The translations under genes and the position numbers were made by a program. Shown here piece after piece: positions 1,404 to 11,857 of a DNA stretch of 64,000 nt; positions within the stretch are counted from its first letter, which is position 1; every line of letters begins with the position of its first letter. Source of the stretch: a virus; the IMG/VR virus record IMGVR_UViG_3300010033_000001, positions 1-64,000 of that record; one strand, written 5' to 3'. Under the pieces are notes generated by a model. It made no database searches, was not told the origin of the DNA, and saw only the letters and a list, made by a program, of their open reading frames with translations.

Positions 1404-1433
1404 TGTCTTATTGTTTTGTTGTCTTGCTTATAA

Positions 1434-1464
1434 CAAATGTAACAAAAGAATCTATACAGACAAA
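1434..1464 (-). promoter_or_regulatory. Bacteroidota-type promoter (TTTG-N19-TAcaTTTG)
   Basis: The minus strand reads TTTG (1464-1461), 19 nt, then TACATTTG (1441-1434). It lies 30 nt upstream of the ATG at 1403 and is part of the conserved box TTTGTTACATTTGTTATAA. Confidence 0.7.
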
Positions 1465-1502
1465 TTTTTTCCGTAATTTTTTACTGAATTTTTTCAGGGC
1501 AT

Positions 1503-1528
1503 AAAAAAACCAGGGGTGACTCCCCTGG
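1503..1528 (-). terminator. Rho-independent terminator
   Basis: 7-bp stem CCAGGGG/CCCCTGG with a 5-nt loop, followed on the minus strand by T7. Confidence 0.7.
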
Positions 1529-1630
1529 CAACTTTAAATGAGAAAAAACGACCGGTCTTATCCGGAAGTCACATAAATGTAATTGATGTACTTTAAAATT
1601 CAAACTCGAGGGAATTCTAGAATTTCTAGA

Positions 1631-1660
1631 ATAAAAGAAGCCAGGCCGTCATAGCCTGGC
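1631..1660 (-). terminator. Rho-independent terminator
   Basis: 7-bp stem GCCAGGC/GCCTGGC followed on the minus strand by TTCTTTTAT. Confidence 0.55.
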
Positions 1661-1715
1661 TAAATGAAAATTACCATGTTTAACCTTACCCAAAGGTTAT
1701 TCAAATATATGTGTT

Positions 1716-1741
1716 TGGCAACTATATACAAAGTGGGACAA
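1716..1741 (+). repeat. left 26-bp terminal inverted repeat TGGCAACTATATACAAAGTGGGACAA
   Basis: Exact reverse complement of 6681..6706. Confidence 0.95.
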
Positions 1742-1976
1742 AGGAAAAAATGCTGGCTCTAAATGCATATGCTTGCATTTTTTCAAATCACGGTAGATCC
1801 CTTGTGCCATGAAAGACTCGTGATATTTCGGGGAACCTACGGAATGTCAAAGAACATTCGCAGCTGCCAGTGTCGCCGATCATCTACAACGGCGCCCCTG
1901 GCATACGGCCAAAACCGACTGCTATTTACACACGCGTATTAGTTTTAAGGTTTCTGAATACACAAAAACCGATTAA

Positions 1977-3185: not shown

Positions 3186-3494
3186 CTAATTCTTATTTTC
3201 AAGTTTCTGAAGGTTTTCCTTTAAATACTTAATCAGAATTTCACCTTGTTCAATATCGGCATCAAGTATATTAATACTGTGCTCAAGCTGCCTGCTATGC
3301 CTTTTGGCAAGGTCATTTGCCAGATGCTCACGCTGTGCCTTCATTTGATTGAGCTCAAAGGTCGCCTCACCGAGCTCGGTCTTAATTGTGTCGATTGTCA
3401 TACTTTGTTTGTCATTTATGGTTACCTTCAATACCTCATCGAATGTGGCGTTGATTTTGAATTTCTCATTGTATCGATTCTTTCTTTTAGTCAT
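3186..3494 (-). CDS. coiled-coil protein
   Basis: 102-aa ORF whose ATG overlaps the transposase stop by 8 nt. Heptad-like, Glu/Lys/Leu-rich. Confidence 0.5.
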   Translation of the reverse strand: MTKRKNRYNEKFKINATFDEVLKVTINDKQSMTIDTIKTELGEATFELNQMKAQREHLANDLAKRHSRQLEHSINILDADIEQGEILIKYLKENLQKLENKN

Positions 3495-4452
3495 ACCTCA
3501 TGTTTGTTAATTCATCATAGCTTAAAGGCGCCTCACTGCTTTCCAGGAACTTATGCATCCTTTCTGATGCACTCATAGCCCGGGCATTGAAAACGGCAGC
3601 AAACGCATTCAAATACCTGTGCAAATGCTTTTCGCTTATCTGGTGGTGAACACCGTATATGGAACGTTTAAAGAGACTCCAAAAATTTTCTATGCTATTA
3701 GTGTGTACCTGGCCATCGACATACTTCGAAAGGCGGTGCAATATGGTGGCATGGTTGTACCTCTTGTTCAGGTCCATGTATGACTTATTCTCATCGGTGT
3801 ATATGGTGGCACCTGCCGGTACTTTCTGATTAATGAATTCCAAGAGGTGCTTTTTCTTACCGCTGGGCATGTACCTTAAAACGATTTGACCGGATCGCTC
3901 CATGATACCCATGAGCATTTTTTTAGGCTTGTAGGGTGTGCCATCATTTCTAAAATTACCGTTGTTCGGGTCACGCTTGCGGCCAAAGTGTTTGTTCTTC
4001 TCCTTTCCATCAATCCAAGCTTCATCAACCTCAATGGGTCCGGAGCAATCCAAGAACTCAGGTTGTTGCTCCTTAAGCATTTCGCGGATTCGGTGCATCA
4101 TGAACCAGGCTGTTTTCTGTGTGATGCCTAGCAATTCAGCCAGGTAGGGACTAGTGACGCTTTTCTTACTTGTGGTTAGGATATAGATCGCCCCGAACCA
4201 TATTCTCAATGGCTTCTTAGTATTCTGAAAAATAGTTCCGACCAACACCGTGAATTTTTTCCTGCAGTCTTTGTTACTGCACTTATAACCACGATTCGTT
4301 TTGTAGGGCTTTTCACTTTGGCAATGCGGGCACCTGGGCTTGCCGTTCCATCTAATTTGTTCGTAGTACTCGATTGCCGTTTTTTCATCACGGAAATAAT
4401 CGAGCAAATGAGGTAGGGATTTGAAATTCATGTCGTAAATAATCGTTGTCAC
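3487..4452 (-). CDS. IS1595-family (ISXO2-like) DDE transposase
   Basis: N-terminal zinc ribbon (CPHCQS...CSNKDC), an HTH region, then an ISXO2-like core (EVDEAWIDGK...IYTDENKSY...HTNSIENFWS). Confidence 0.8.
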   Translation of the reverse strand: MTTIIYDMNFKSLPHLLDYFRDEKTAIEYYEQIRWNGKPRCPHCQSEKPYKTNRGYKCSNKDCRKKFTVLVGTIFQNTKKPLRIWFGAIYILTTSKKSVTSPYLAELLGITQKTAWFMMHRIREMLKEQQPEFLDCSGPIEVDEAWIDGKEKNKHFGRKRDPNNGNFRNDGTPYKPKKMLMGIMERSGQIVLRYMPSGKKKHLLEFINQKVPAGATIYTDENKSYMDLNKRYNHATILHRLSKYVDGQVHTNSIENFWSLFKRSIYGVHHQISEKHLHRYLNAFAAVFNARAMSASERMHKFLESSEAPLSYDELTNMRYD

Positions 4453-5601: not shown

Positions 5602-5735
5602 CGACCACTTATTGAGATTGTATTTTTAAGTTCTTAAAAATTCACTACATTCAAGCATTGGCTTGCTGGGACAAGCAAGCTGGTAGATCAGCTGTACCTA
5701 TACGGTGTCATCGTATCGGGTACCGCACTCAGTGG

Positions 5736-5763
5736 GGCCGGCTATATGCCGGCTCTGTTTTTT
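5736..5763 (+). terminator. Rho-independent terminator
   Basis: GCCGGC tatat GCCGGC followed by TCTGTTTTTT. Confidence 0.55.
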
Positions 5764-5792
5764 AATAGCGATGTCAAATTAAACTTTACGAT

Positions 5793-6062
5793 ATGATAGG
5801 ATGGCAAGATTACTATGAGTACATGCATAGTGTACAAGAATCAATGATCGAAAACATGAAACCGATTGTTGATGATGATCCAAGCACTCAATACTTAAAA
5901 AGGTCGAATGAAAAGATCAAATTGGAACGGCAATTTGCAGAAGCATCGATTCAATTCATGCAATCAAATGGTATACCTGCAAGTCATGAAAATTATACAA
6001 TCAGTACTGCGATGATGCTGCCGTTATTAAATGAATTATATAGAAAGCGGATGACTATGTGA
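5793..6062 (+). CDS. hypothetical protein
   Basis: 89-aa plus-strand ORF followed by a terminator. Confidence 0.45.
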   Translation: MIGWQDYYEYMHSVQESMIENMKPIVDDDPSTQYLKRSNEKIKLERQFAEASIQFMQSNGIPASHENYTISTAMMLPLLNELYRKRMTM

Positions 6063-6098
6063 ATAAGTCGAATACTTGTACATAACCATGTTGAAAAC

Positions 6099-6135
6099 AA
6101 AACCCTGTCAAATTGATTGATAGGGTTTTTTGTTT
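6099..6135 (+). terminator. Rho-independent terminator
   Basis: AACCCT / AGGGTT stem with a 15-nt loop, followed by TTTTTTGTTTG. Confidence 0.45.
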
Positions 6136-6186
6136 GTAAATTGGTCCGGAATAAAAAAGACCCCATCAATTAAGATGGAGTCTTCA

Positions 6187-6269
6187 TATCCAGTGATGAA
6201 AGCCGTATAGACACCAGTTTAGAAAGCTGGCGCTCGCAAAGCATGTCGGTTCGAATCCCATCTGGACTA
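6187..6269 (+). tRNA. degenerate class II tRNA-like element or tRNA fragment (anticodon position reads AGA)
   Basis: Good anticodon arm CCAGT-TTAGAAA-GCTGG, a variable-arm hairpin GCT-CGCAA-AGC and a T loop TTCGAAT. The T stem has a C-C mismatch, the acceptor has only 5 bp and no D stem could be drawn. Confidence 0.3.
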
Positions 6270-6278
6270 CTATTTATT

Positions 6279-6364
6279 GGCGCAGTGGCGAAATCGGTAA
6301 ACGCATCAGATTTTGACTCTGATATCCGTCCCAGGATTTGTCGGTTCGAATCCGACCTGCGCTT
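6279..6364 (+). tRNA. class II tRNA (long variable arm, Leu-like D arm) with anticodon UUG (Gln by anticodon)
   Basis: Acceptor GGCGCAG/CTGCGCT (G1-U72 wobble), U8, D stem GCG/CGC with loop AAATCGGTAAA. Anticodon stem TCAGA/TCTGA with loop TTTTGAC (anticodon 6313-6315). 17-nt variable arm with an ATCC/GGAT stem. T arm GTCGG-TTCGAAT-CCGAC. Confidence 0.7.
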
Positions 6365-6373
6365 CTATTTATC

Positions 6374-6444
6374 AGTGCCGTGTCCGAGTGGCCAGGTAAT
6401 GTGGTTGCCCCCCATTTACACCGGTTCGAATCCGGTCGGCACTT
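6374..6444 (+). tRNA. 71-nt tRNA-like gene, anticodon ambiguous (GCC or UGC)
   Basis: Perfect acceptor AGTGCCG/CGGCACT and T arm ACCGG-TTCGAAT-CCGGT. Ser/Tyr-like D loop GAGTGGCCA, but the D and anticodon stems are weak. Confidence 0.5.
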
Positions 6445-6475
6445 CAAAGATAGGCTTTTAGGCCTATCAAGTATT

Positions 6476-6553
6476 GGGGGAGTAGCTCAACCCGGATAGA
6501 GCGTCTGACTTAAAATCAGAAAGTTGCGGGATCGTACCCCGTCTCCTCCACCA
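6476..6553 (+). tRNA. class I tRNA with anticodon UAA (Leu by anticodon), 3' CCA encoded
   Basis: Acceptor GGGGGAG/CTCCTCC (one G-U), D arm GCTC-AACCCGGATA-GAGC, anticodon arm TCTGA-CTTAAAA-TCAGA (anticodon 6511-6513). 5-nt variable loop, T arm GCGGG-ATCGTAC-CCCGT, then A-CCA. Confidence 0.8.
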
Positions 6554-6680: not shown

Positions 6681-6706
6681 TTGTCCCACTTTGTATATAG
6701 TTGCCA
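6681..6706 (-). repeat. right 26-bp terminal inverted repeat
   Basis: TTGTCCCACTTTGTATATAGTTGCCA is the exact reverse complement of 1716..1741. Confidence 0.95.
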
Positions 6707-6846: not shown

Positions 6847-8526
6847 TTACCGCAAAATGTACGGCGCTATCGTTGATTGTCCAAGCTTGCGATTCTTACG
6901 CACCCAATTCCAATATACTGCTGCATCGAATATATTAGGTGACTTACCGCCCAAACGCTTTTTGATTTGATCCTTAGACTCGATTTTGATCATCTTGTCT
7001 GATATGCTGTACTTCACCAATGTACACTGCTTGACAAATTCCTGAAGCGTTCTAGGATCAGCGATATCGACAATGAAATCACGATGCATAAGATCCAGAC
7101 GGAATTGAAACATCATTTGCGCCCTGAGTGATGCAAAGGTGTATTTGGGGTTACCCTCGCGATCAACGGGTATACAGTCCATATCAGGACCACCTTGCAA
7201 ACCGATCACACTATAGTTCAATCTTGCAAATTCGTTAATGGTACCAACACCAACACCAACTGCATCGACTCCTACGGATTGATGATCAACACCCTGATGC
7301 TTTAACTTCCAAGTATGATAAATCGGAATACCGTGTTGCCTCAGGTGCTCATCATCATTCACCAGATTATCAGCCAGGGCATTTGCGTTTGGACATTGGA
7401 ATTCATTGATGCGAGTCATCACATTACGCTTACCCCACACCAAACAGGCCTTATCACCAGCCTCAGAGTTGGCCACGTCAACACCTAGTGCATTATTGCA
7501 ATCTACTATGTGCTTATTAGTGCCGTCATCGTTCAGTTCATTCTGATCGAGGATGTTATGATCATATTCCTTACGCTGAGTACAGCAAGCTACTATCCAT
7601 TCATGCATGATCAGCGAGTCACTGGATTGTGCCGGTGCAATACCTCGAGCTCGAGACTTAAAGAAGGGTGAATCTTCTCCATATTCCTCACGCCGTTCAT
7701 CAATCGACTGAATGGTAACAGCCCCGGGAATGATTTCTTTTTTGTTGACTACGTTAGGGTGATCATAGCCTGATATGATGATGTGGTGAGTATTAGGACG
7801 CTCACAAAACAGGTGTAATGCATCGGTTTGAGAATCAGGGTTACCAATGGCACATATGACATTGTTTTCACCTGTACAAGTGTTCACAATGGCTTTCACT
7901 ACTGCGGGTGATATCCCGGCAGTTTCTTCGAGTAAGAAAAGCATATTTTTGGCATGGTATCCCTGCATCTTTGTGGCTGACTCCTCATCGGCACCGACTC
8001 CGGAAACCACACCGATCATTTGGTGCGCGTCGTTACCTTCCTCATCCATGTGTTTGTTCAACCTCATACGTCCATCCGGAAGTATTCGTAAGCTGTACAG
8101 CTGGGCACGGTTGTTCATTTTCCTGAACTTTTTAAAGCCCTTGGCCACTTCTTTCCATAGAATAGTTTTGAGTTGTGTAAGCTTTGGAGCTGTGGCTATC
8201 ACTATTGAGTCCTCATATACATCCAAGAACCAATAGGCAAGGCGGGCCACCATGTAAGTCTTGCCGGTGCCCGTGGCTGACTCAATGCCAACGTTCTGTT
8301 TATTGGCTAAGGCCTTGCATGCTTCCAAGAATGGGTTCACTGTTCCATCCCATTGGTGATTTTCATATCCGCCATGTACTGTCCAGTCCAGTGAGCCGAT
8401 CGGTTCCTTAAACTTTTCTATCATCCACTTATCGGGATATCGCTGGTAATACTTTCTTTCAACTACTTTGTGTAATTGTTCCAGCATTTGCCGCCTTGTA
8501 ACGTGCGGATGATTTGTGACTGTCAT
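6847..8526 (-). CDS. terL: terminase large subunit
   Basis: Walker A GIESATGTGKTY, Walker B-like MLFLLEE, C-terminal nuclease-sized domain. ATGA overlap with the upstream small-terminase candidate. Confidence 0.8.
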   Translation of the reverse strand: MTVTNHPHVTRRQMLEQLHKVVERKYYQRYPDKWMIEKFKEPIGSLDWTVHGGYENHQWDGTVNPFLEACKALANKQNVGIESATGTGKTYMVARLAYWFLDVYEDSIVIATAPKLTQLKTILWKEVAKGFKKFRKMNNRAQLYSLRILPDGRMRLNKHMDEEGNDAHQMIGVVSGVGADEESATKMQGYHAKNMLFLLEETAGISPAVVKAIVNTCTGENNVICAIGNPDSQTDALHLFCERPNTHHIIISGYDHPNVVNKKEIIPGAVTIQSIDERREEYGEDSPFFKSRARGIAPAQSSDSLIMHEWIVACCTQRKEYDHNILDQNELNDDGTNKHIVDCNNALGVDVANSEAGDKACLVWGKRNVMTRINEFQCPNANALADNLVNDDEHLRQHGIPIYHTWKLKHQGVDHQSVGVDAVGVGVGTINEFARLNYSVIGLQGGPDMDCIPVDREGNPKYTFASLRAQMMFQFRLDLMHRDFIVDIADPRTLQEFVKQCTLVKYSISDKMIKIESKDQIKKRLGGKSPNIFDAAVYWNWVRKNRKLGQSTIAPYILR

Positions 8527-9353
8527 TCGTCTTTCATTAAGTCACCCAATTTATCAACATCAATGTCAACCAGGTTTTCCCCGGCTGCTGCCTGCATTTT
8601 CTTTATACTCTCAATGATTTCTTCCTCGGTCAGCTGGGCACCGCTGTCATCATCAATGATACTCCTGGGGTCAATGGTGCCATACATAAGGTACATCATT
8701 TTCATTTTTTCCCTGGTTGCCATCATGGCCCCTCTATAATCCTGTTTACTGACTAGCATAGTGAACAGCATTTCCATGCGCCTCTCATACATGGCAGCCT
8801 CTAGCTTAGGTTTCATCCTGTAGTTGTATACTATCTGTTCTTTGGCCTTACTGATAAGGTCGTCAACGATGCTGGTATTCTTAATGTCTACCGCAGACCA
8901 TAAATAGAATTCCGGTATGTCCAGCATTTCCGGGCTTTTCTTCAGCTGGTCTTGTATGGCTCGGATCTTCTCAATGATTTGTTCACGGGTGAGGGCCAGG
9001 ACCAGCCAGCCCATAACATGCTCAACCTGCTTTAAGAATTCCTTATCCTCTTTGGTTTGTGGACGCTCAACCGGTTTGATCGGTAGTATCCCCAAAGGCT
9101 TGATCGTGGGTCGCTCAACCTTTGGCAAATCAATCTTAAGTAGCTCTTTTTTGAATTTGCGGTCTTTCTTAACCTGTTGCCTGTAAATGTTGACCCATTT
9201 ATATTTTTTGACATATCTATCAAGCTGCCTTTTGGACACGTTGAACATAGGCGCCATAATCTCAAATATCTGATTATCAGTACCTCGCGGGCATTCTTCA
9301 TAGAATTTCTTGTGTACCCTTAATTCAATCGGTGTAATCGCACCTTCCGCCAT
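8523..9353 (-). CDS. putative terminase small subunit / DNA-binding packaging protein
   Basis: Immediately upstream of terL and overlapping it. Basic HTH-like N-terminus (NVSKRQLDRYVKKYKW). Call is by position only. Confidence 0.45.
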   Translation of the reverse strand: MAEGAITPIELRVHKKFYEECPRGTDNQIFEIMAPMFNVSKRQLDRYVKKYKWVNIYRQQVKKDRKFKKELLKIDLPKVERPTIKPLGILPIKPVERPQTKEDKEFLKQVEHVMGWLVLALTREQIIEKIRAIQDQLKKSPEMLDIPEFYLWSAVDIKNTSIVDDLISKAKEQIVYNYRMKPKLEAAMYERRMEMLFTMLVSKQDYRGAMMATREKMKMMYLMYGTIDPRSIIDDDSGAQLTEEEIIESIKKMQAAAGENLVDIDVDKLGDLMKDE

Positions 9354-9534
9354 AAATCAACTATATGTCGAAAAATAGTAAAAAACTTGACACATTCTTT
9401 TGTTACATGTCAAAGATCGGCTGCACCCAATTTGTAACAAGTGCGTTTATGAGGCGCAAACATCATATTTATCGAAGATTTTTCATTTTTTGCCGCGTGT
9501 CAAACTTTCGTTATCGGGTTGAGGGACCCAGGCA

Positions 9535-9744
9535 TTATTTCTCAATTGTTGGGTTCTTCAATTGATCAAGATATCGGTTCTTTTTGGCAATCTTACGGTT
9601 TAATGCTTCGATCTTGATTTGTGTTTGTACCAAATCACCTTTTAGGCTTCTTAACTGACGACCGTAATGTCCAAGATCGTTTGTGCACAGTAAGATTTTT
9701 TCGTTGATCTCCTCTTGGGTTAATTGCTTTTTATCTCTTTGCAT
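9535..9744 (-). CDS. small coiled-coil protein
   Basis: 69-aa ORF, heptad-like. Confidence 0.4.
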   Translation of the reverse strand: MQRDKKQLTQEEINEKILLCTNDLGHYGRQLRSLKGDLVQTQIKIEALNRKIAKKNRYLDQLKNPTIEK

Positions 9745-9996
9745 AACGGTTTTTTTTAAGCCCGTCTTTCCAGGCTGTCAGTCTTTGAACACCTTAAGCC
9801 ATACAATGGGCAGACTCTAAGTCTGCGAGAGGAAGCCATAATCAGATGTCCCAATGCCTAAGATGAACCCGACAAGGTTCGCCTCATTTTATCCTCTCAA
9901 ATAGTTCTTTTCAACCAATGCTTTAGGCTACTCGCTCACGGTCGTATCTGTGAAATCCGAATAGTTCAGGTGTGGGCTTTCACCTAAAGCTGATTG

Positions 9997-10078
9997 TGGC
10001 GATGGCAGGAATCGAACCTACAACCTTACGGACTCCGCAAGTGCATGAGCGGGGCTAACCAATATCCCCATCATCGCT
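9997..10078 (-). ncRNA. tRNA-like element with canonical acceptor, D and T arms but no anticodon loop
   Basis: The minus strand reads AGCGATG-AT-GGGG-ATATTGGTTAG-CCCC ... GTAGG-TTCGATT-CCTGC-CATCGCC-A. The anticodon position is a closed hairpin CTC(A)TGC-ACTT-GCGGAG followed by CC-GTAA-GG. Confidence 0.45.
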
Positions 10079-10092
10079 TCTTTAAATAAGTT

Positions 10093-10322
10093 AGGAAATA
10101 AACAGGATTCGATACCTGTAACCGTTCATGACCGGATATTTCGTCTTCTACTAGAATTACCTATCCGTTACATGGCGCTCTGTACAAAGCACCAATGTTC
10201 ACTATAGACCCTCCTGCCCTCGCAGGTGTGCAGTATTACACCAAATCACCAACTAATATGCGTTACTTATCACAAGCTGCATGGGTTAGTCCCCACCGCT
10301 ACGCGCTTCCGCCACTATTCCC
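10093..10322 (-). ncRNA. candidate ~230-nt structured RNA closed by a tRNA-type acceptor stem with G3-U70
   Basis: 5' GGGAATA pairs 7/7 with 3' TATTTCC (G3-U70 wobble). Leu-like D-arm string GTGGCGGAA at the 5' end and a T-arm-like ACAGG-TATCGAAT-CCTGT at the 3' end. Internal hairpins GGTGT/ACACC, CCTGC-GAGG-GCAGG and GGTGCT-(T)TGTACA(G)-AGCGCC (6 bp; 7 bp if the adjacent T-G wobble is counted). Confidence 0.3.
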
Positions 10323-10381
10323 TATTGATTAAGTCAATTTTCCAGGTCACGTCTTGATCCTGGTCAGTAGCCAAAGACAGG

Positions 10382-11176
10382 TTACCCTAATCCTTGGCTA
10401 TTTTCGGTTTTTAATTCTCGCATGCTTAACTGTTTAGGTTCCTGTTTCTTTACCTGTGCAGGGTTGAATAACTGACCCTGTTTGATATGGTTCTTTAACC
10501 TTTCGACCCCTGCTTTATAGTAGTCTTCATCAATCTCCCATAGGTCCAGATCAAAGCCTAAATCATAACATGCTATTGCTATGCTCATAGAGCCTCCATG
10601 AGTGTCTAGAATCCTATCCCCAGGTTTGGCATAGTTCTGTAATAGCCACTTGTAAAGGGCTACAGGTTTTTGTGTGGGATGAATGCGCTTATCAATACCA
10701 GTGTTATCCCAATTAATTTTTCCCCCTTGCTTGTTACCGCTCCATTTATATCTAAAAACTGTGATTCTTTTTTGAAGTGAGCAGCTCGCTAAGTCACCAT
10801 GAGAGAAGTTAATTTTGGTTCCTTAAAAATCAGTTTCCTTGTCATGAAATATTCTACCTTTGGATGTGATATAACTCGCATAGTAATTACAACCCCAGAT
10901 GATTTGGTTTTCAGTCACTAAATGAAGTGATTTAAAATAGTTCTCTTTAGGAATAGAGTCATTCCAATCCTTGTTTTTATGTATTGATGGGTACTTTTTA
11001 CCGTTAGCTTGAGGAAAGTTTTTACCCGCGGCACCACTTCCATTAATCATATCAAGACCAATTCCATACGGAGGATCCACAATGGCCAAATGGTAGGACT
11101 TCTCTTTCATGGATTTCATAGCTTTCATACAATCCCCATGATACAGGTTAATATTTGGTGTCTTGCTTACGTTCAT
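10382..11176 (-). pseudogene. DNA methyltransferase (N6_N4 type, DPPY...HPTQKP...GGS) interrupted by an in-frame TAA at 10823-10825
   Basis: ORFs 10823..11176 and 10382..10588 share one frame. Hand translation across the gap is continuous: ...HDKETDF*GTKINFSHGDLASCSLQKRITVFRYKWSGNKQGGKINWDNTGIDKRIHPTQKPVALYKWLLQNYAKPGDRILDTHGGSMS... Confidence 0.75.
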
Positions 11177-11182
11177 AGACTC

Positions 11183-11857
11183 TCAGTTTTCTAGATCAAA
11201 ATGATCAACAATATACATCAAACAATCCTCAGTTGACTTGAATCCGGTTTTCTGTTTGACTGCATTGATAAGGTTGTATAACCGCTTTCGGTTTTCCTCA
11301 CGCATTGGCAGGTCAAAGTGCACATGCCCATGGTCAGTGATTACTCCTGATCCTGATTCAAAGGGTTTGACATCCTTTACAGCGACATCAATCGTATCAG
11401 CTGCGTTAGTGATATCAGCTGCAATACGATCGATGTTCACACCTTCATATGACAGTGTGCTTTTAAGCCAATCGTTATCGATTCCCTTGACGAACTTGAT
11501 CATGTTGTCACGATCGATTTTACCATACTGTGAGGTGATCACCAGCAAACGCTGTTTAGCTTCTTTTCGGCTTTTGGCCAGGATTTCAATGTATGGTATT
11601 TCGAAGGGCTCGACCTCATGCTTAGTAAGGGTTATGATACGTTGGTGGCCATCGATGCAATGGGCGACTTTGCTTTTGTCAAACCATACGATAATGGGTA
11701 CAAAGAAACCGTTGTTTTCGATTGAGTTGAGCAGCTTATTTTCATCCTTTTGTGATAATGTCTTCAGATCACCCTGCAGTAACTGAACCGATCTGTAATC
11801 AATACACGGCAGGTCATTAGGGTTAATAATTTTCATGTTTGGTTTTTTTAACAACAT
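11183..11857 (-). CDS. ParB-like nuclease-domain protein
   Basis: The N-terminal ParB/Srx-type motif ...VPIIVWFDKSKVAHCIDGHQRI; adjacent to a methyltransferase, as is common in phages. Confidence 0.55.
   Translation of the reverse strand: MLLKKPNMKIINPNDLPCIDYRSVQLLQGDLKTLSQKDENKLLNSIENNGFFVPIIVWFDKSKVAHCIDGHQRIITLTKHEVEPFEIPYIEILAKSRKEAKQRLLVITSQYGKIDRDNMIKFVKGIDNDWLKSTLSYEGVNIDRIAADITNAADTIDVAVKDVKPFESGSGVITDHGHVHFDLPMREENRKRLYNLINAVKQKTGFKSTEDCLMYIVDHFDLEN

What the first reader, a model, noticed from the sequence alone, without database searches (positions are those of the whole stretch)
9745..10381. 620-nt ORF-free, GC-enriched block packed with tRNA-derived modules: candidate large structured phage RNA
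Genes in this genome normally abut or overlap, yet 9745-10381 has no ORF of 60 aa or more in any frame. It is also locally GC-rich: 33 of 60 nt are G or C in 10261-10320 by hand count, against AT-rich surroundings. Read on the minus strand it contains four kinds of structure. (a) A ~230-nt segment closed by a 7/7 tRNA-type acceptor stem. (b) An 82-nt tRNA-like element lacking an anticodon loop. (c) An isolated anticodon-arm-like hairpin GCAGA-CTTAGAG-TCTGC (9810-9826) followed by CCAT-TGT-ATGG. (d) An H-type pseudoknot candidate GCTTT-AGGTG-AAAGC-CCA-CACCT (9968-9990). This is not a normal tRNA array. It could be a decayed tRNA cluster, a tRNA-mimic RNA (tmRNA-like or Y-RNA-like), or a large ornate RNA of the kind (GOLLD, ROOL) that is known to occur in phages next to tRNAs.
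Basis: partly seen in the sequence, partly recalled or inferred. Interest (0 to 1): 0.8.

Follow-up and report, generated by a model that had tools for sequence, protein, structure and literature searches.

The report
Decayed tRNA genes in a phage spacer
The 637-base gene-free block in this uncultured phage is real, but it looks like a non-coding spacer holding one or two broken tRNA genes rather than a large structured RNA, so it is fairly ordinary.

Summary
The raw observation holds. Window 9745-10381 is the longest stretch without an ORF of 60 aa or more, and its GC (0.46) is high for this 0.41-GC phage.

"Packed with tRNA-derived modules" does not hold. Only one element is clearly tRNA-derived. 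This is psi3 (9997-10078, minus strand), a full-length tRNA derivative. It keeps a canonical T arm, a 6-bp acceptor stem and a D arm, but has no usable anticodon loop. A second T-arm-like mini-helix (10095-10142) is probably a further relic. The isolated anticodon-like hairpin, the pseudoknot and the long-range "acceptor" stem are at chance level.

No Rfam family matches, including tmRNA, group I intron, GOLLD, ROOL and YrlA. The GC-richest part folds no better than shuffled sequence. No homologue of the block was found in any collection searched.

The closest relative (59% TerL identity) has only 170 nt between ParB and TerS, where the window has the methylase gene, this block and a 69-aa ORF. 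More distant relatives carry intact tRNA genes at the analogous position. The adjacent methylase gene has an in-frame TAA, and other degenerate tRNAs lie nearby.

Best reading: a remnant of a small tRNA gene array in a decaying accessory island, transcribed as a spacer ahead of the packaging genes. A retained role for the tRNA-like mini-helices as RNase P/Z processing signals is not excluded.

The parts
9745..10381 (-). Non-coding block between the methylase stop codon (10382-10384) and the ATG of a 69-aa orphan ORF (9744).
   Evidence: Longest ORF-free stretch of the window. GC 0.46. No ORF under alternative codes. No protein relic by six-frame tblastn against 84 related loci. No homologue anywhere.
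10324..10399 (-). Three consecutive hairpins straddling and following the methylase stop codon. They are AGCCAAGGA...TCTTTGGCT at 10399-10369, CCAGG...CCTGG at 10363-10342 and a small TTGA/TCAA hairpin at about 10338-10324. Probable 3'-end or terminator-like structure of the methylase transcript.
   Evidence: Strongest local fold of the area: the 120-nt window 10321-10440 has z -5.45 on the minus strand. Seen as inverted repeat I10 and in the centroid. A role as terminator is inferred; no U tract follows.
10095..10142 (-). psi2, a truncated tRNA-like mini-helix. The T-arm-like hairpin is ACAGG-TATCGAAT-CCTGT (10119-10102), i.e. the canonical GGTTCGAATCC with one inserted A. It is closed by GAAATAT/TTATTTC in 6 of 7 pairs, with a small CCG...CGG hairpin in between. 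There is no anticodon arm.
   Evidence: Sequence. T-loop motif scan: the only such motifs outside the + strand tRNA cluster are this one and psi3. Seventh-best hit of a 14-tRNA HMM in the window, E 8.9. The fold is not significant on its own, z -0.92. The closing stem has roughly P 0.08 by my estimate.
9997..10078 (-). psi3, a full-length but non-decoding tRNA derivative.
- Acceptor GCGATG (10077-10072) / CATCGC (10004-9999), with an A1.C72 mismatch.
- D arm GGGG-ATATTGGTTAG-CCCC (10069-10051).
- 9-nt linker GCTCATGCA.
- 17-nt hairpin CTTGCGG-AGT-CCGTAAG (10041-10025) in place of an anticodon arm, or a class II extra arm left after loss of the anticodon arm.
- T arm GTAGG-TTCGATT-CCTGC (10021-10005).
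- Discriminator A9997, then CAA.
   Evidence: Folds alone into this cloverleaf: -31.2 kcal/mol, 47% of the ensemble, z -2.07. ARAGORN calls it at ps90 together with the window's real tRNAs; shuffles give 0.35 hits per 64 kb. The tRNA HMM hits its 3' half with E 7.6e-6. Its T arm matches annotated tRNA-Thr genes of rV5-like phages. Not called by ARAGORN at default settings. In the Rfam tRNA clan the best hit is the 10.9-bit tmRNA 3'-end match.
9968..9990 (-). It is more simply an 8-bp hairpin, UUUAGGUG...CACCUGAA.
   Evidence: Sequence. RNAfold MFE and centroid of 9860-9992. The proposed pseudoknot would have zero-length loops 1 and 2.
9810..9826 (-). Hairpin GCAGA-CTTAGAG-TCTGC, followed by CCAT-TGT-ATGG. 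It looks like an anticodon arm plus extra arm, but no T arm or acceptor accompanies it.
   Evidence: Sequence. No tRNA call here at any ARAGORN threshold down to ps70. No tRNA HMM hit. The 101-nt fold has z -0.61.
10382..11176 (-). Upstream neighbour: an N6/N4 DNA methyltransferase gene in one frame, broken by an in-frame TAA at 10823-10825.
   Evidence: Translation and sequence. Pfam N6_N4_Mtase matches the C part. PHROG 23224 profile positions 64-176 match the N part and 182-301 the C part.
9535..9744 (-). Downstream neighbour: a 69-aa orphan ORF, followed by a 276-aa TerS-position gene (8523-9353) and TerL (6847-8526).
   Evidence: ORF list. No family hit. No homologue other than itself among 5.8 billion protein clusters.

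Best explanation
The block is a non-coding spacer in an accessory island just upstream of the packaging genes of an uncultured phage of about 70 kb, probably infecting Bacteroidota.

Anatomy, on the coding (minus) strand:
- A strongly folding hairpin cluster ends the DNA-methylase gene, which is nonsense-disrupted.
- Then come the remains of a small tandem tRNA gene array. One member (psi3) is a full-length tRNA derivative that has lost a usable anticodon arm. One member (psi2) is a truncated acceptor/T-arm mini-helix.
- These are embedded in sequence with no detectable structure, homology or coding capacity.

Shown: the tRNA ancestry of psi3, its inability to decode, and the absence of any known RNA family or homologue.

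Inferred:
- The elevated GC is a residue of former tRNA genes.
- The block is transcribed by read-through from the methylase operon into the 69-aa ORF and TerS/TerL genes, because no Bacteroidota-type promoter motif lies inside it.
- It has no function as one large RNA.
- At most, the surviving acceptor/T-arm helices are still cut by host RNase P and RNase Z, as such mini-helices generally are.
For: tRNA ancestry:
- psi3 has an exact GGTTCGATTCC T-loop motif within a paired T stem, a 6-bp acceptor stem at the correct distance, and a D loop with A14, G18G19 and A21.
- It is one of six ARAGORN hits in the window at ps90. The other five all lie in the + strand tRNA cluster. Shuffled windows give 0.35 hits per 64 kb.
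- A tRNA HMM hits it at E 7.6e-6.
- A second T-arm-like hairpin lies 98 nt upstream in the same orientation, which is the spacing of tandem tRNA genes.

Non-decoding:
- ARAGORN does not call it at default settings, and no Rfam tRNA hit appears.
- U33 and purine 37 are absent from the only 7-nt loop reading, GGAGUCC.

Decay context:
- The adjacent methylase has an in-frame TAA.
- Two further degenerate tRNA-like genes lie at 5673-5761 and 6187-6270, beside the three live tRNAs.
- An IS1595 transposase sits in the same genome.

Family context:
- The closest relative, L002 (59% TerL identity), has methylase-ParB-170 nt-TerS-TerL with no such block.
- L063 has three intact tRNAs 0.7-1.2 kb upstream of TerS on the same strand. 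L041 and L020 also have a tRNA upstream of TerL.

Against a large RNA:
- The whole-block z is -2.15, and the GC-richest part has z near 0.
- There are no internal repeats and no motif shared with the rest of the window.
Against: - There is no close relative (best TerL identity 59%), so decay cannot be shown by comparison with an intact orthologous array.
- About 450 of the 637 nt have no recognisable origin at all.
- Phage genomes usually delete useless DNA, so retention of 637 nt hints at some use.
- Both tRNA-like elements keep the acceptor/T-arm stack while lacking the anticodon arm. That is not what purely random decay predicts and could mean selection for the mini-helix.
- Transcription was not tested.
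Confidence: 0.55

Rival explanations
1. Functional anticodon-less tRNA mimics. In this reading psi3 and psi2 are maintained as tRNA-like mini-helices. They would act as RNase P / RNase Z punctuation that cuts the read-through transcript and uncouples the methylase/ParB message from the ORF69-TerS-TerL message. Alternatively they would be released as small tRNA-like RNAs that titrate a host tRNA-binding enzyme or a tRNA-targeting defence nuclease.
For: - Both elements keep a paired acceptor stem stacked on a T arm but lack a decoding anticodon arm.
- psi3 keeps the D-loop and T-loop nucleotides needed for the tRNA elbow.
- Its cloverleaf takes 47% of the ensemble.
- The block lies exactly at a module boundary and has no internal Bacteroidota-type promoter motif, so read-through transcription is plausible.
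- From my own knowledge, not tested here: acceptor/T-arm mini-helices are sufficient RNase P and RNase Z substrates, and tRNA-like punctuation is used in mitochondria, plant mitochondrial t-elements and MALAT1 mascRNA.
Against: - Nothing comparable was found upstream of TerS in 84 related loci by blastn, nhmmer, tRNA HMM or Rfam.
- psi2 is statistically weak (z -0.92, HMM E 8.9).
- In psi3, U8 is replaced, pair 1-72 is mismatched, and a 9-nt linker distorts the core.
- No RNA-repair, Ro/Rsr or CCA-adding genes were found among the 30 proteins scanned.
Confidence: 0.22
2. A DNA-level site rather than an RNA: the packaging recognition site (pac/cos) for the adjacent terminase, a replication origin or promoter region, or an attP core carrying the 3' part of a host tRNA.
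For: - The position is immediately upstream of the ORF69-TerS-TerL module, where cos sites lie in several phage groups (my own knowledge).
- GC is atypical for an intergenic region.
- The tRNA sequence profile recognises mainly the 3' half of psi3, as in attP cores.
Against: - There are no direct repeats or arrays of binding-site-like motifs.
- The 5' acceptor strand and D loop of psi3 are present, so it is a whole tRNA gene and not a 3' fragment.
- The 21-mer T-arm/acceptor string matched 7 loci in 185,579 representative genomes and 5 metagenome contigs, none from a Bacteroidota-like host.
- No integrase was found among the 30 proteins scanned.
- The independent ENA contig ends at about window 1557, inside another gap and not here.
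- No Bacteroidota -7 motif lies in the block.
Confidence: 0.1
3. A split or intron-containing tRNA-Leu(UAG). The 5' exon would be 10295-10322, the 3' exon 9996-10058, and the 236-nt insert (10059-10294) a self-splicing intron or mobile insertion.
For: - ARAGORN in intron mode makes this call at its default threshold and makes none in five shuffles of the whole window.
- The joined exons can fold into an acceptor-like stem, a 9-bp stem with loop UUUAGCC, an extra arm and the T arm, at -34.5 kcal/mol.
- The proposed 5' exon ends in U and the insert ends in G, as in group I introns.
Against: - ARAGORN's acceptor stem has only 4 of 7 pairs, and the alternative GTGGCGG/TCGCCAC stem is out of register with the T arm by 2 nt.
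- The model discards the canonical D loop into the 'intron' and leaves no D arm.
- When the sequence upstream of psi3 is shuffled, ARAGORN still finds an 'intron tRNA' in 13 of 200 trials, so P is about 0.065 given a real 3' half.
- No group I or group II intron match appears in Rfam at E up to 10.
- The only P7-like strings are in the wrong order for a group I core.
- The long-range helices appear in the MFE but not in the centroid.
Confidence: 0.04
4. One large ornate structured RNA (GOLLD/ROOL-like, tmRNA-like or a new class) spanning most of the block.
For: - It is a long ORF-free, relatively GC-rich block next to tRNA-like elements in a phage.
- The minus-strand fold is slightly better than shuffles, z -2.15.
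- There is a weak Rfam tmRNA 3'-end match at 9994-10046 (10.9 bits).
Against: - No Rfam family approaches its threshold; tmRNA scores 10.9 bits against a gathering score of 47, and only through the T arm.
- ARAGORN finds no tmRNA.
- The plus strand folds as well as the minus strand.
- Sliding-window z-scores are unremarkable except at the methylase stop codon.
- No homologue was found in GenBank phages or 84 related loci, and exact strings from the block found no relative in IMG/VR, GTDB genomes or JGI metagenomes.
Confidence: 0.04

Closest known systems
tRNA pseudogenes or degenerate tRNA genes in phage tRNA islands
   Same: - A recognisable T arm, acceptor stem and D loop, but a defective anticodon region.
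- Tandem spacing of about 100 nt.
- Location in an accessory region next to other decaying genes.
- The same phage has further sub-threshold tRNA-like genes beside its live tRNA cluster.
   Different: - This array is on the opposite strand and 3.5 kb away from the phage's live tRNA cluster.
- Most of the 637 nt cannot be assigned to any tRNA.
- No intact orthologue is available to show the decay path.
tRNA-like processing signals (plant mitochondrial t-elements, MALAT1 mascRNA, tRNA punctuation of mitochondrial transcripts, RNase P sites in bacterial polycistronic mRNAs)
   Same: An acceptor/T-arm mini-helix without a decoding anticodon arm, embedded in what is probably a longer transcript at a boundary between gene modules.
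   Different: No processing has been shown, there is no conservation in related phages, and the comparison rests on my own knowledge of those systems.
tmRNA tRNA-like domain
   Same: A T arm plus 3' acceptor strand preceded by a long helix. This gives the only Rfam clan hit (10.9 bits).
   Different: - The 5' acceptor strand is local, 73 nt away, not hundreds of nucleotides upstream.
- The third acceptor pair is C3-G70, so there is no G3.U70.
- ARAGORN found no tag reading frame at default settings.
- The score is far below the gathering score of 47.
GOLLD / ROOL large RNAs of phages
   Same: Phage location near tRNA-type sequence, and length of several hundred nucleotides.
   Different: No match to either covariance model at E up to 10, no strong or strand-specific folding signal, and no homologues.
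Group I intron in a tRNA anticodon loop (cyanobacterial tRNA-Leu, Azoarcus tRNA-Ile)
   Same: ARAGORN can assemble a tRNA-Leu around a 236-nt insert that begins after U and ends in G.
   Different: - The insertion site is 28/29 by ARAGORN's numbering, not in the anticodon.
- The acceptor has 4 of 7 pairs, and there is no D arm.
- No group I core and no Rfam hit.
- The call is reproduced in 6.5% of trials with shuffled upstream sequence.

Membership tests
Functional tRNA | Cloverleaf with a 5-bp anticodon stem and a 7-nt loop carrying U33 and purine 37, detected by standard tRNA finders. | tested here: not met
   ARAGORN at default settings finds nothing in 9745-10381. There is no Rfam tRNA hit at gathering score or at E up to 10. 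The only 7-nt loop reading of psi3 is GGAGUCC, and a 9-nt linker replaces position 26.
tRNA-derived relic (pseudo-tRNA) | T arm with the GTTCGAnTC loop motif, an acceptor stem in register with it, and a D loop with GG, at tRNA-like distances and beyond chance. | tested here: met
   For psi3: sequence and fold, ARAGORN ps90 with 0.35 false hits per shuffled 64 kb, and tRNA HMM E 7.6e-6. psi2 meets only the T-arm part.
tRNA-derived relic (pseudo-tRNA) | An intact orthologous tRNA at the same locus in a close relative. | tested here: inconclusive
   No relative closer than 59% TerL identity exists in the collections. More distant relatives L063, L041 and L020 have intact tRNAs upstream of TerS/TerL. 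L002 has none.
tmRNA | A match to the tmRNA covariance model or an ARAGORN tmRNA call, with a tRNA-like domain carrying G3.U70 and an internal tag ORF. | tested here: not met
   Rfam gives 10.9 bits against a gathering score of 47, covering the T arm only. ARAGORN -m at default settings finds none. The third acceptor pair is C-G.
Group I intron (in tRNA) | A conserved P3-P8 core with the P7 G-binding site, exons that join into a valid tRNA, and an Rfam Intron_gpI match. | tested here: not met
   No Rfam hit at E up to 10. The joined exons lack a D arm, and the acceptor has 4 of 7 pairs. ARAGORN's intron call has P of about 0.065 given psi3's 3' half.
GOLLD / ROOL / other large Rfam RNAs | A match to the family covariance model. 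| tested here: not met
   All 4227 Rfam 15 models were scanned at gathering score on the window, and at E up to 10 on 9500-10600 and 9960-10340. Only spurious matches at or below 20 bits appeared.
New large structured RNA | Homologues with conserved structure and covarying pairs. | tested here: not met
   No homologue was found in GenBank phages or 84 related loci. Exact strings from the block found no relative in IMG/VR. The 21-mer found only unrelated tRNA-type loci in GTDB genomes and JGI metagenomes. The only other copy, Logan SRR5215458, is identical over 4,080 nt. Covariation is therefore untestable at present.
YrlA / bacterial Y RNA | A tRNA-like domain joined to an Rsr-binding stem, encoded next to an rsr (Ro60/TROVE) gene. 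| tested here: not met
   No Rfam YrlA hit. The ends of psi3 pair with each other, leaving no Y-RNA stem. No TROVE protein was found among the 30 proteins scanned. The structural-gene half of the window was not scanned.
attP core overlapping a tRNA 3' end | Identity to the 3' end of a host tRNA gene, with an adjacent integrase gene. | tested here: not met
   The 21-mer T-arm/acceptor string hits only unrelated taxa, such as Myxococcota tRNA-Met. No integrase was found among the scanned proteins. psi3 also has its own 5' half.
cos / pac packaging site | Physical genome termini, or terminase binding, at the site. | not testable with these tools
   Only indirect evidence is available: no repeat arrays, and an independent contig ends at about window 1557, not here.

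The most novel reading that the evidence does not exclude
The phage maintains two tandem anticodon-less tRNA mimics (psi2 and psi3) in the leader of its packaging operon. They would act as RNase P / RNase Z punctuation marks, or as released tRNA-like decoys. This would be a bacterial-virus counterpart of mitochondrial tRNA punctuation and plant t-elements, evolved from the phage's own tRNA genes.
Probability: 0.18. Interest if true: 0.55.

Novelty: new member of a known kind. Interest (0 to 1): 0.2.

Why it matters
If the best explanation is right, this is a small illustration of tRNA gene turnover in phage accessory islands. It also serves as a caution: a GC-rich ORF-free block with tRNA-like pieces is not by itself evidence for a large structured RNA.

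It would matter more only if the surviving acceptor/T-arm mini-helices prove to be processing signals or tRNA decoys. That would be a new use of tRNA-derived elements in a Bacteroidota-type phage. At present the phage has no close relatives and no expression data, so the question cannot be settled by computation.

Tried and rejected
1. Known RNA families. Rfam was run at gathering score and at E up to 10; it returned only the + strand tRNAs and spurious weak hits.
2. Homologues of the block, all negative:
   - blastn in distant mode against 50,697 phage records;
   - blastn and nhmmer against 84 loci of TerL relatives;
   - exact 19-25-mers against IMG/VR;
   - a 21-mer against GTDB genomes and JGI metagenomes, which found only unrelated tRNA-type loci.
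3. Decayed protein gene. Six-frame tblastn against the related loci found nothing, and stop codons are at random density in all frames.
4. Hidden ORF under recoding (TGA, TAG or TAA read through). No long minus-strand ORF appears.
5. A link between the methylase's in-frame TAA and a suppressor tRNA in the block. No tRNA-like element with a UUA anticodon was found.
6. Intron-containing tRNA-Leu. Rejected for the poor acceptor stem, the missing D arm, and its recurrence at 6.5% with shuffled upstream sequence.
7. The orphan ORF69 as a handle to find the cassette elsewhere. It has no homologue, and the only other contig is identical.
8. Promoter search. There is no TAnnTTTG motif in the block. 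One sigma-70-like match lies at 9914-9886 on the minus strand, but the count is at shuffle expectation, and the phage looks Bacteroidota-hosted, with 5 of 57 genes carrying SD-like motifs.
9. Shared motifs with the other intergenic gaps. None were found.
10. Two literature searches gave nothing specific.
Full report
SOURCE AND CONTEXT

The window matches an ENA metagenome contig (ERZ27245420 k141_180476, 66 kb). It belongs to an uncultured tailed phage.
- It has no nucleotide match in GenBank phages. Its TerL is at most about 26% identical to any GenBank phage TerL.
- In a 5.8-billion-cluster protein collection, the closest TerL other than itself is 59% identical.
- Only 5 of 57 genes have an SD-like motif. 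Some TerL relatives are labelled Bacteroidia or Raineya. A Bacteroidota host is therefore likely.
- Nearly all genes are on the minus strand. Around the finding the order is: ParB-like (11183-11857), DNA methylase (10382-11176), the block (9745-10381), a 69-aa orphan ORF (9535-9744), a 276-aa gene in the TerS position (8523-9353), and TerL (6847-8526).

CHECKING THE OBSERVATION

The block is the longest stretch of the window without any ORF of 60 aa or more (637 nt; the next is 573 nt at 1404-1976).
- No long minus-strand ORF appears if TGA, TAG or TAA is read through.
- Stop codons occur at random density in all six frames.
- Six-frame tblastn against 84 related loci finds no protein relic.
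- A random stretch of the same composition is ORF-free with P of about 0.16. The property therefore means "non-coding", nothing more.

GC is 0.46 against 0.409 for the window. That is about the 95th percentile of 637-nt windows, whereas other intergenic gaps are 0.34-0.38.

WHICH "MODULES" ARE REAL

psi3 (about 9997-10078, minus strand) is clearly tRNA-derived.
- It has the exact GGTTCGATTCC motif inside a paired T stem, GTAGG/CCTGC.
- It has a 6-bp acceptor stem, GCGATG/CATCGC, in register with the T arm.
- It has a D arm, GGGG-ATATTGGTTAG-CCCC, with the usual A14, G18G19 and A21.
- Alone, it folds into this cloverleaf (-31.2 kcal/mol, 47% of the ensemble, z -2.07).
- ARAGORN calls it at 90% of its normal threshold, together with the window's real tRNAs. 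Shuffled windows give 0.35 such hits per 64 kb.
- A 14-tRNA HMM hits its 3' half at E 7.6e-6.
- Its T arm matches annotated tRNA-Thr genes in rV5-like phages.

psi3 cannot decode.
- A 9-nt linker follows the D arm.
- The 17-nt hairpin CUUGCGG-AGU-CCGUAAG has either a 3-nt loop or a 7-nt loop GGAGUCC without U33 or purine 37.
- Position 8 is A, and pair 1-72 is A.C.
- ARAGORN at default settings and the Rfam tRNA model both miss it.
- It reads well as a class II tRNA whose anticodon arm was deleted, leaving the long extra arm. That reading is an inference.

psi2 is a probable second relic. It lies 98 nt upstream in the same orientation.
- ACAGG-TATCGAAT-CCTGT (10119-10102) is the canonical T arm with one inserted base.
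- It is closed by GAAATAT/TTATTTC in 6 of 7 pairs, giving a 48-nt mini-helix.
- It is weak on its own (z -0.92; HMM E 8.9).
- T-loop motifs occur nowhere else in the window outside the + strand tRNA cluster.

The other modules are at chance level.
- At ARAGORN ps70 the region has 2 hits against 2.5 expected.
- The anticodon-like hairpin at 9810-9826 has no accompanying T arm or acceptor, and it has no HMM or ARAGORN support.
- RNAfold resolves the "pseudoknot" at 9968-9990 as an ordinary 8-bp hairpin.
- The long-range "acceptor" closure equals ARAGORN's intron-mode tRNA-Leu(tag) with a 236-nt insert. That model has a 4/7 acceptor stem and puts the real D loop into the "intron". It reappears in 13 of 200 trials when the sequence upstream of psi3 is shuffled, although whole-window shuffles never produce it. 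Given a genuine tRNA 3' half, the call is not significant.

IS THERE A LARGE STRUCTURED RNA?

The evidence says no.
- No Rfam 15 family is matched at gathering score or at E up to 10. The only clan-relevant hit is the tmRNA model aligning to psi3's T arm, at 10.9 bits against a gathering score of 47.
- The whole block folds slightly better than shuffles on both strands (z -2.15 minus, -2.93 plus; 20 shuffles each). The signal is therefore not strand-specific.
- In 120-nt sliding windows, the only strong signal (z -5.45) is 10321-10440. That is a cluster of three hairpins straddling and following the methylase stop codon, and it looks like a 3'-end or terminator-type structure.
- All four 120-nt windows lying wholly inside the GC-richest stretch, 10200-10350, have z between about -1 and +1.1.
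- There are no internal repeats and no motifs shared with other parts of the genome.

COMPARATIVE EVIDENCE

Nothing homologous to the block was found in GenBank phages, 84 loci of TerL relatives, IMG/VR exact-string scans, GTDB genomes or JGI metagenomes.
- The genome and metagenome hits to the 21-mer T-arm/acceptor string are unrelated tRNAs (for example Myxococcota tRNA-Met) or odd tRNA-like sequences. None comes from a Bacteroidota-like host, so the attP idea gains no support.
- ORF69 has no homologue.
- The only other copy of the locus, a Logan assembly of SRR5215458, is identical over 4,080 nt. Covariation therefore cannot be tested.

The locus in relatives:
- The closest relative, L002, has methylase-ParB-170 nt-TerS-TerL with no such block.
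- Of 54 relatives with enough upstream sequence, 13 have an ORF-free gap of 250 nt or more within 4 kb upstream of TerL.
- L063 has three intact tRNA genes 0.7-1.2 kb upstream of TerS on the same strand. L041 and L020 also carry a tRNA upstream of TerL.
- No ARAGORN-negative tRNA-like element is conserved upstream of TerS in the family.
- In short, tRNA genes come and go around the packaging module in this phage group.

SIGNS OF DECAY NEARBY

- The methylase is a single reading frame interrupted by TAA at 10823-10825. The PHROG 23224 profile continues across the stop.
- The + strand tRNA cluster (5673-6553) contains two sub-threshold tRNA-like genes and a tRNA-Gly that fails Rfam's gathering score.
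- An IS1595-family transposase sits at 3487-4452.

INTERPRETATION

Best explanation (confidence about 0.55): the block is a spacer containing the remnant of a small tandem tRNA array in a degenerating accessory island.
- The raised GC is the residue of former tRNA genes.
- The block is probably transcribed by read-through into the packaging genes, because no Bacteroidota -7 motif lies inside it.
- These last two points are inferences.

The main rival (about 0.2) is that the two anticodon-less acceptor/T-arm helices are kept as RNase P/Z processing signals or as tRNA mimics.
- In its favour, both elements keep the mini-helix while lacking the anticodon arm, and 637 nt of useless DNA is unusual in a compact phage.
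- Against it, there is no conservation in relatives, and psi2 is weak.

A DNA-level site (pac/cos, ori, attP; about 0.1), an intron-containing tRNA (about 0.04) and a single large RNA (about 0.04) are less likely, for the reasons given above.

VERDICT

This is a new instance of a known kind, degenerate tRNA genes in a phage accessory region. Interest is low, with a modest residual chance of a tRNA-mimic processing element.

Noticed in passing
window 10382-11176 (-), stop at 10823-10825: The N6/N4 DNA methyltransferase is one reading frame interrupted by an in-frame TAA inside a conserved block. PHROG 23224 profile positions 64-176 lie before the stop and 182-301 after it. The same sequence is in the Logan contig. 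It is either a pseudogene or a read-through gene; no ochre-suppressor tRNA was found in the window.
   Followed up: partly
window 1717-1735 (-) and 6687-6705 (+); core also at 1527, 6621: There is an exact 19-nt repeat, CACTTTGTATATAGTTGCC, in two intergenic regions on opposite strands. Its core, TATAGTTGCC, gives 10 hits with up to 1 mismatch against 3.7 expected. It looks like a phage promoter or regulatory motif, and it is absent from 9745-10381.
   Followed up: partly
window 5673-6553 (+): The tRNA cluster has three ARAGORN tRNAs: Gln-ttg (87 nt, with a long extra arm), Gly-gcc and Leu-taa. Rfam passes only two of them; Gly-gcc is below the gathering score. Two degenerate tRNA-like genes, at 5673-5761 and 6187-6270, appear only at relaxed threshold.
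   Followed up: partly
window 3487-4452 (-): An IS1595-family DDE transposase with its zinc ribbon lies inside the phage genome, between the tRNA cluster and a set of small ORFs.
   Followed up: no
window 1404-1976: This is the second-longest ORF-free gap (573 nt, GC 0.38). It has hairpin/T-run terminator-like sequences and Bacteroidota-type TAnnTTTG motifs. The end of the independent ENA contig maps to about window 1557 inside it, so it is either a possible physical genome end or an assembly break.
   Followed up: no
window 10324-10399 (-): Three consecutive hairpins straddle and follow the methylase stop codon. This is the strongest local folding signal in the area (z -5.45 for 10321-10440), and no U tract follows.
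   Followed up: partly
L014 9761-9861 (-): A relative phage carries a 101-nt tRNA that Rfam scores at 39 bits, but ARAGORN does not call it. It has extra hairpins in the anticodon and variable region. A tRNA with an odd anticodon loop is also called in L014, and another in L041.
   Followed up: no
L087 3861-3929 (-) (Oleiphilus MAG contig): A tRNA with a CTA (amber-reading) anticodon shares an identical 24-nt T-arm/acceptor string with psi3. L093 and L095/L097 have the same 21-mer in tRNA-like sequences that ARAGORN does not call.
   Followed up: no
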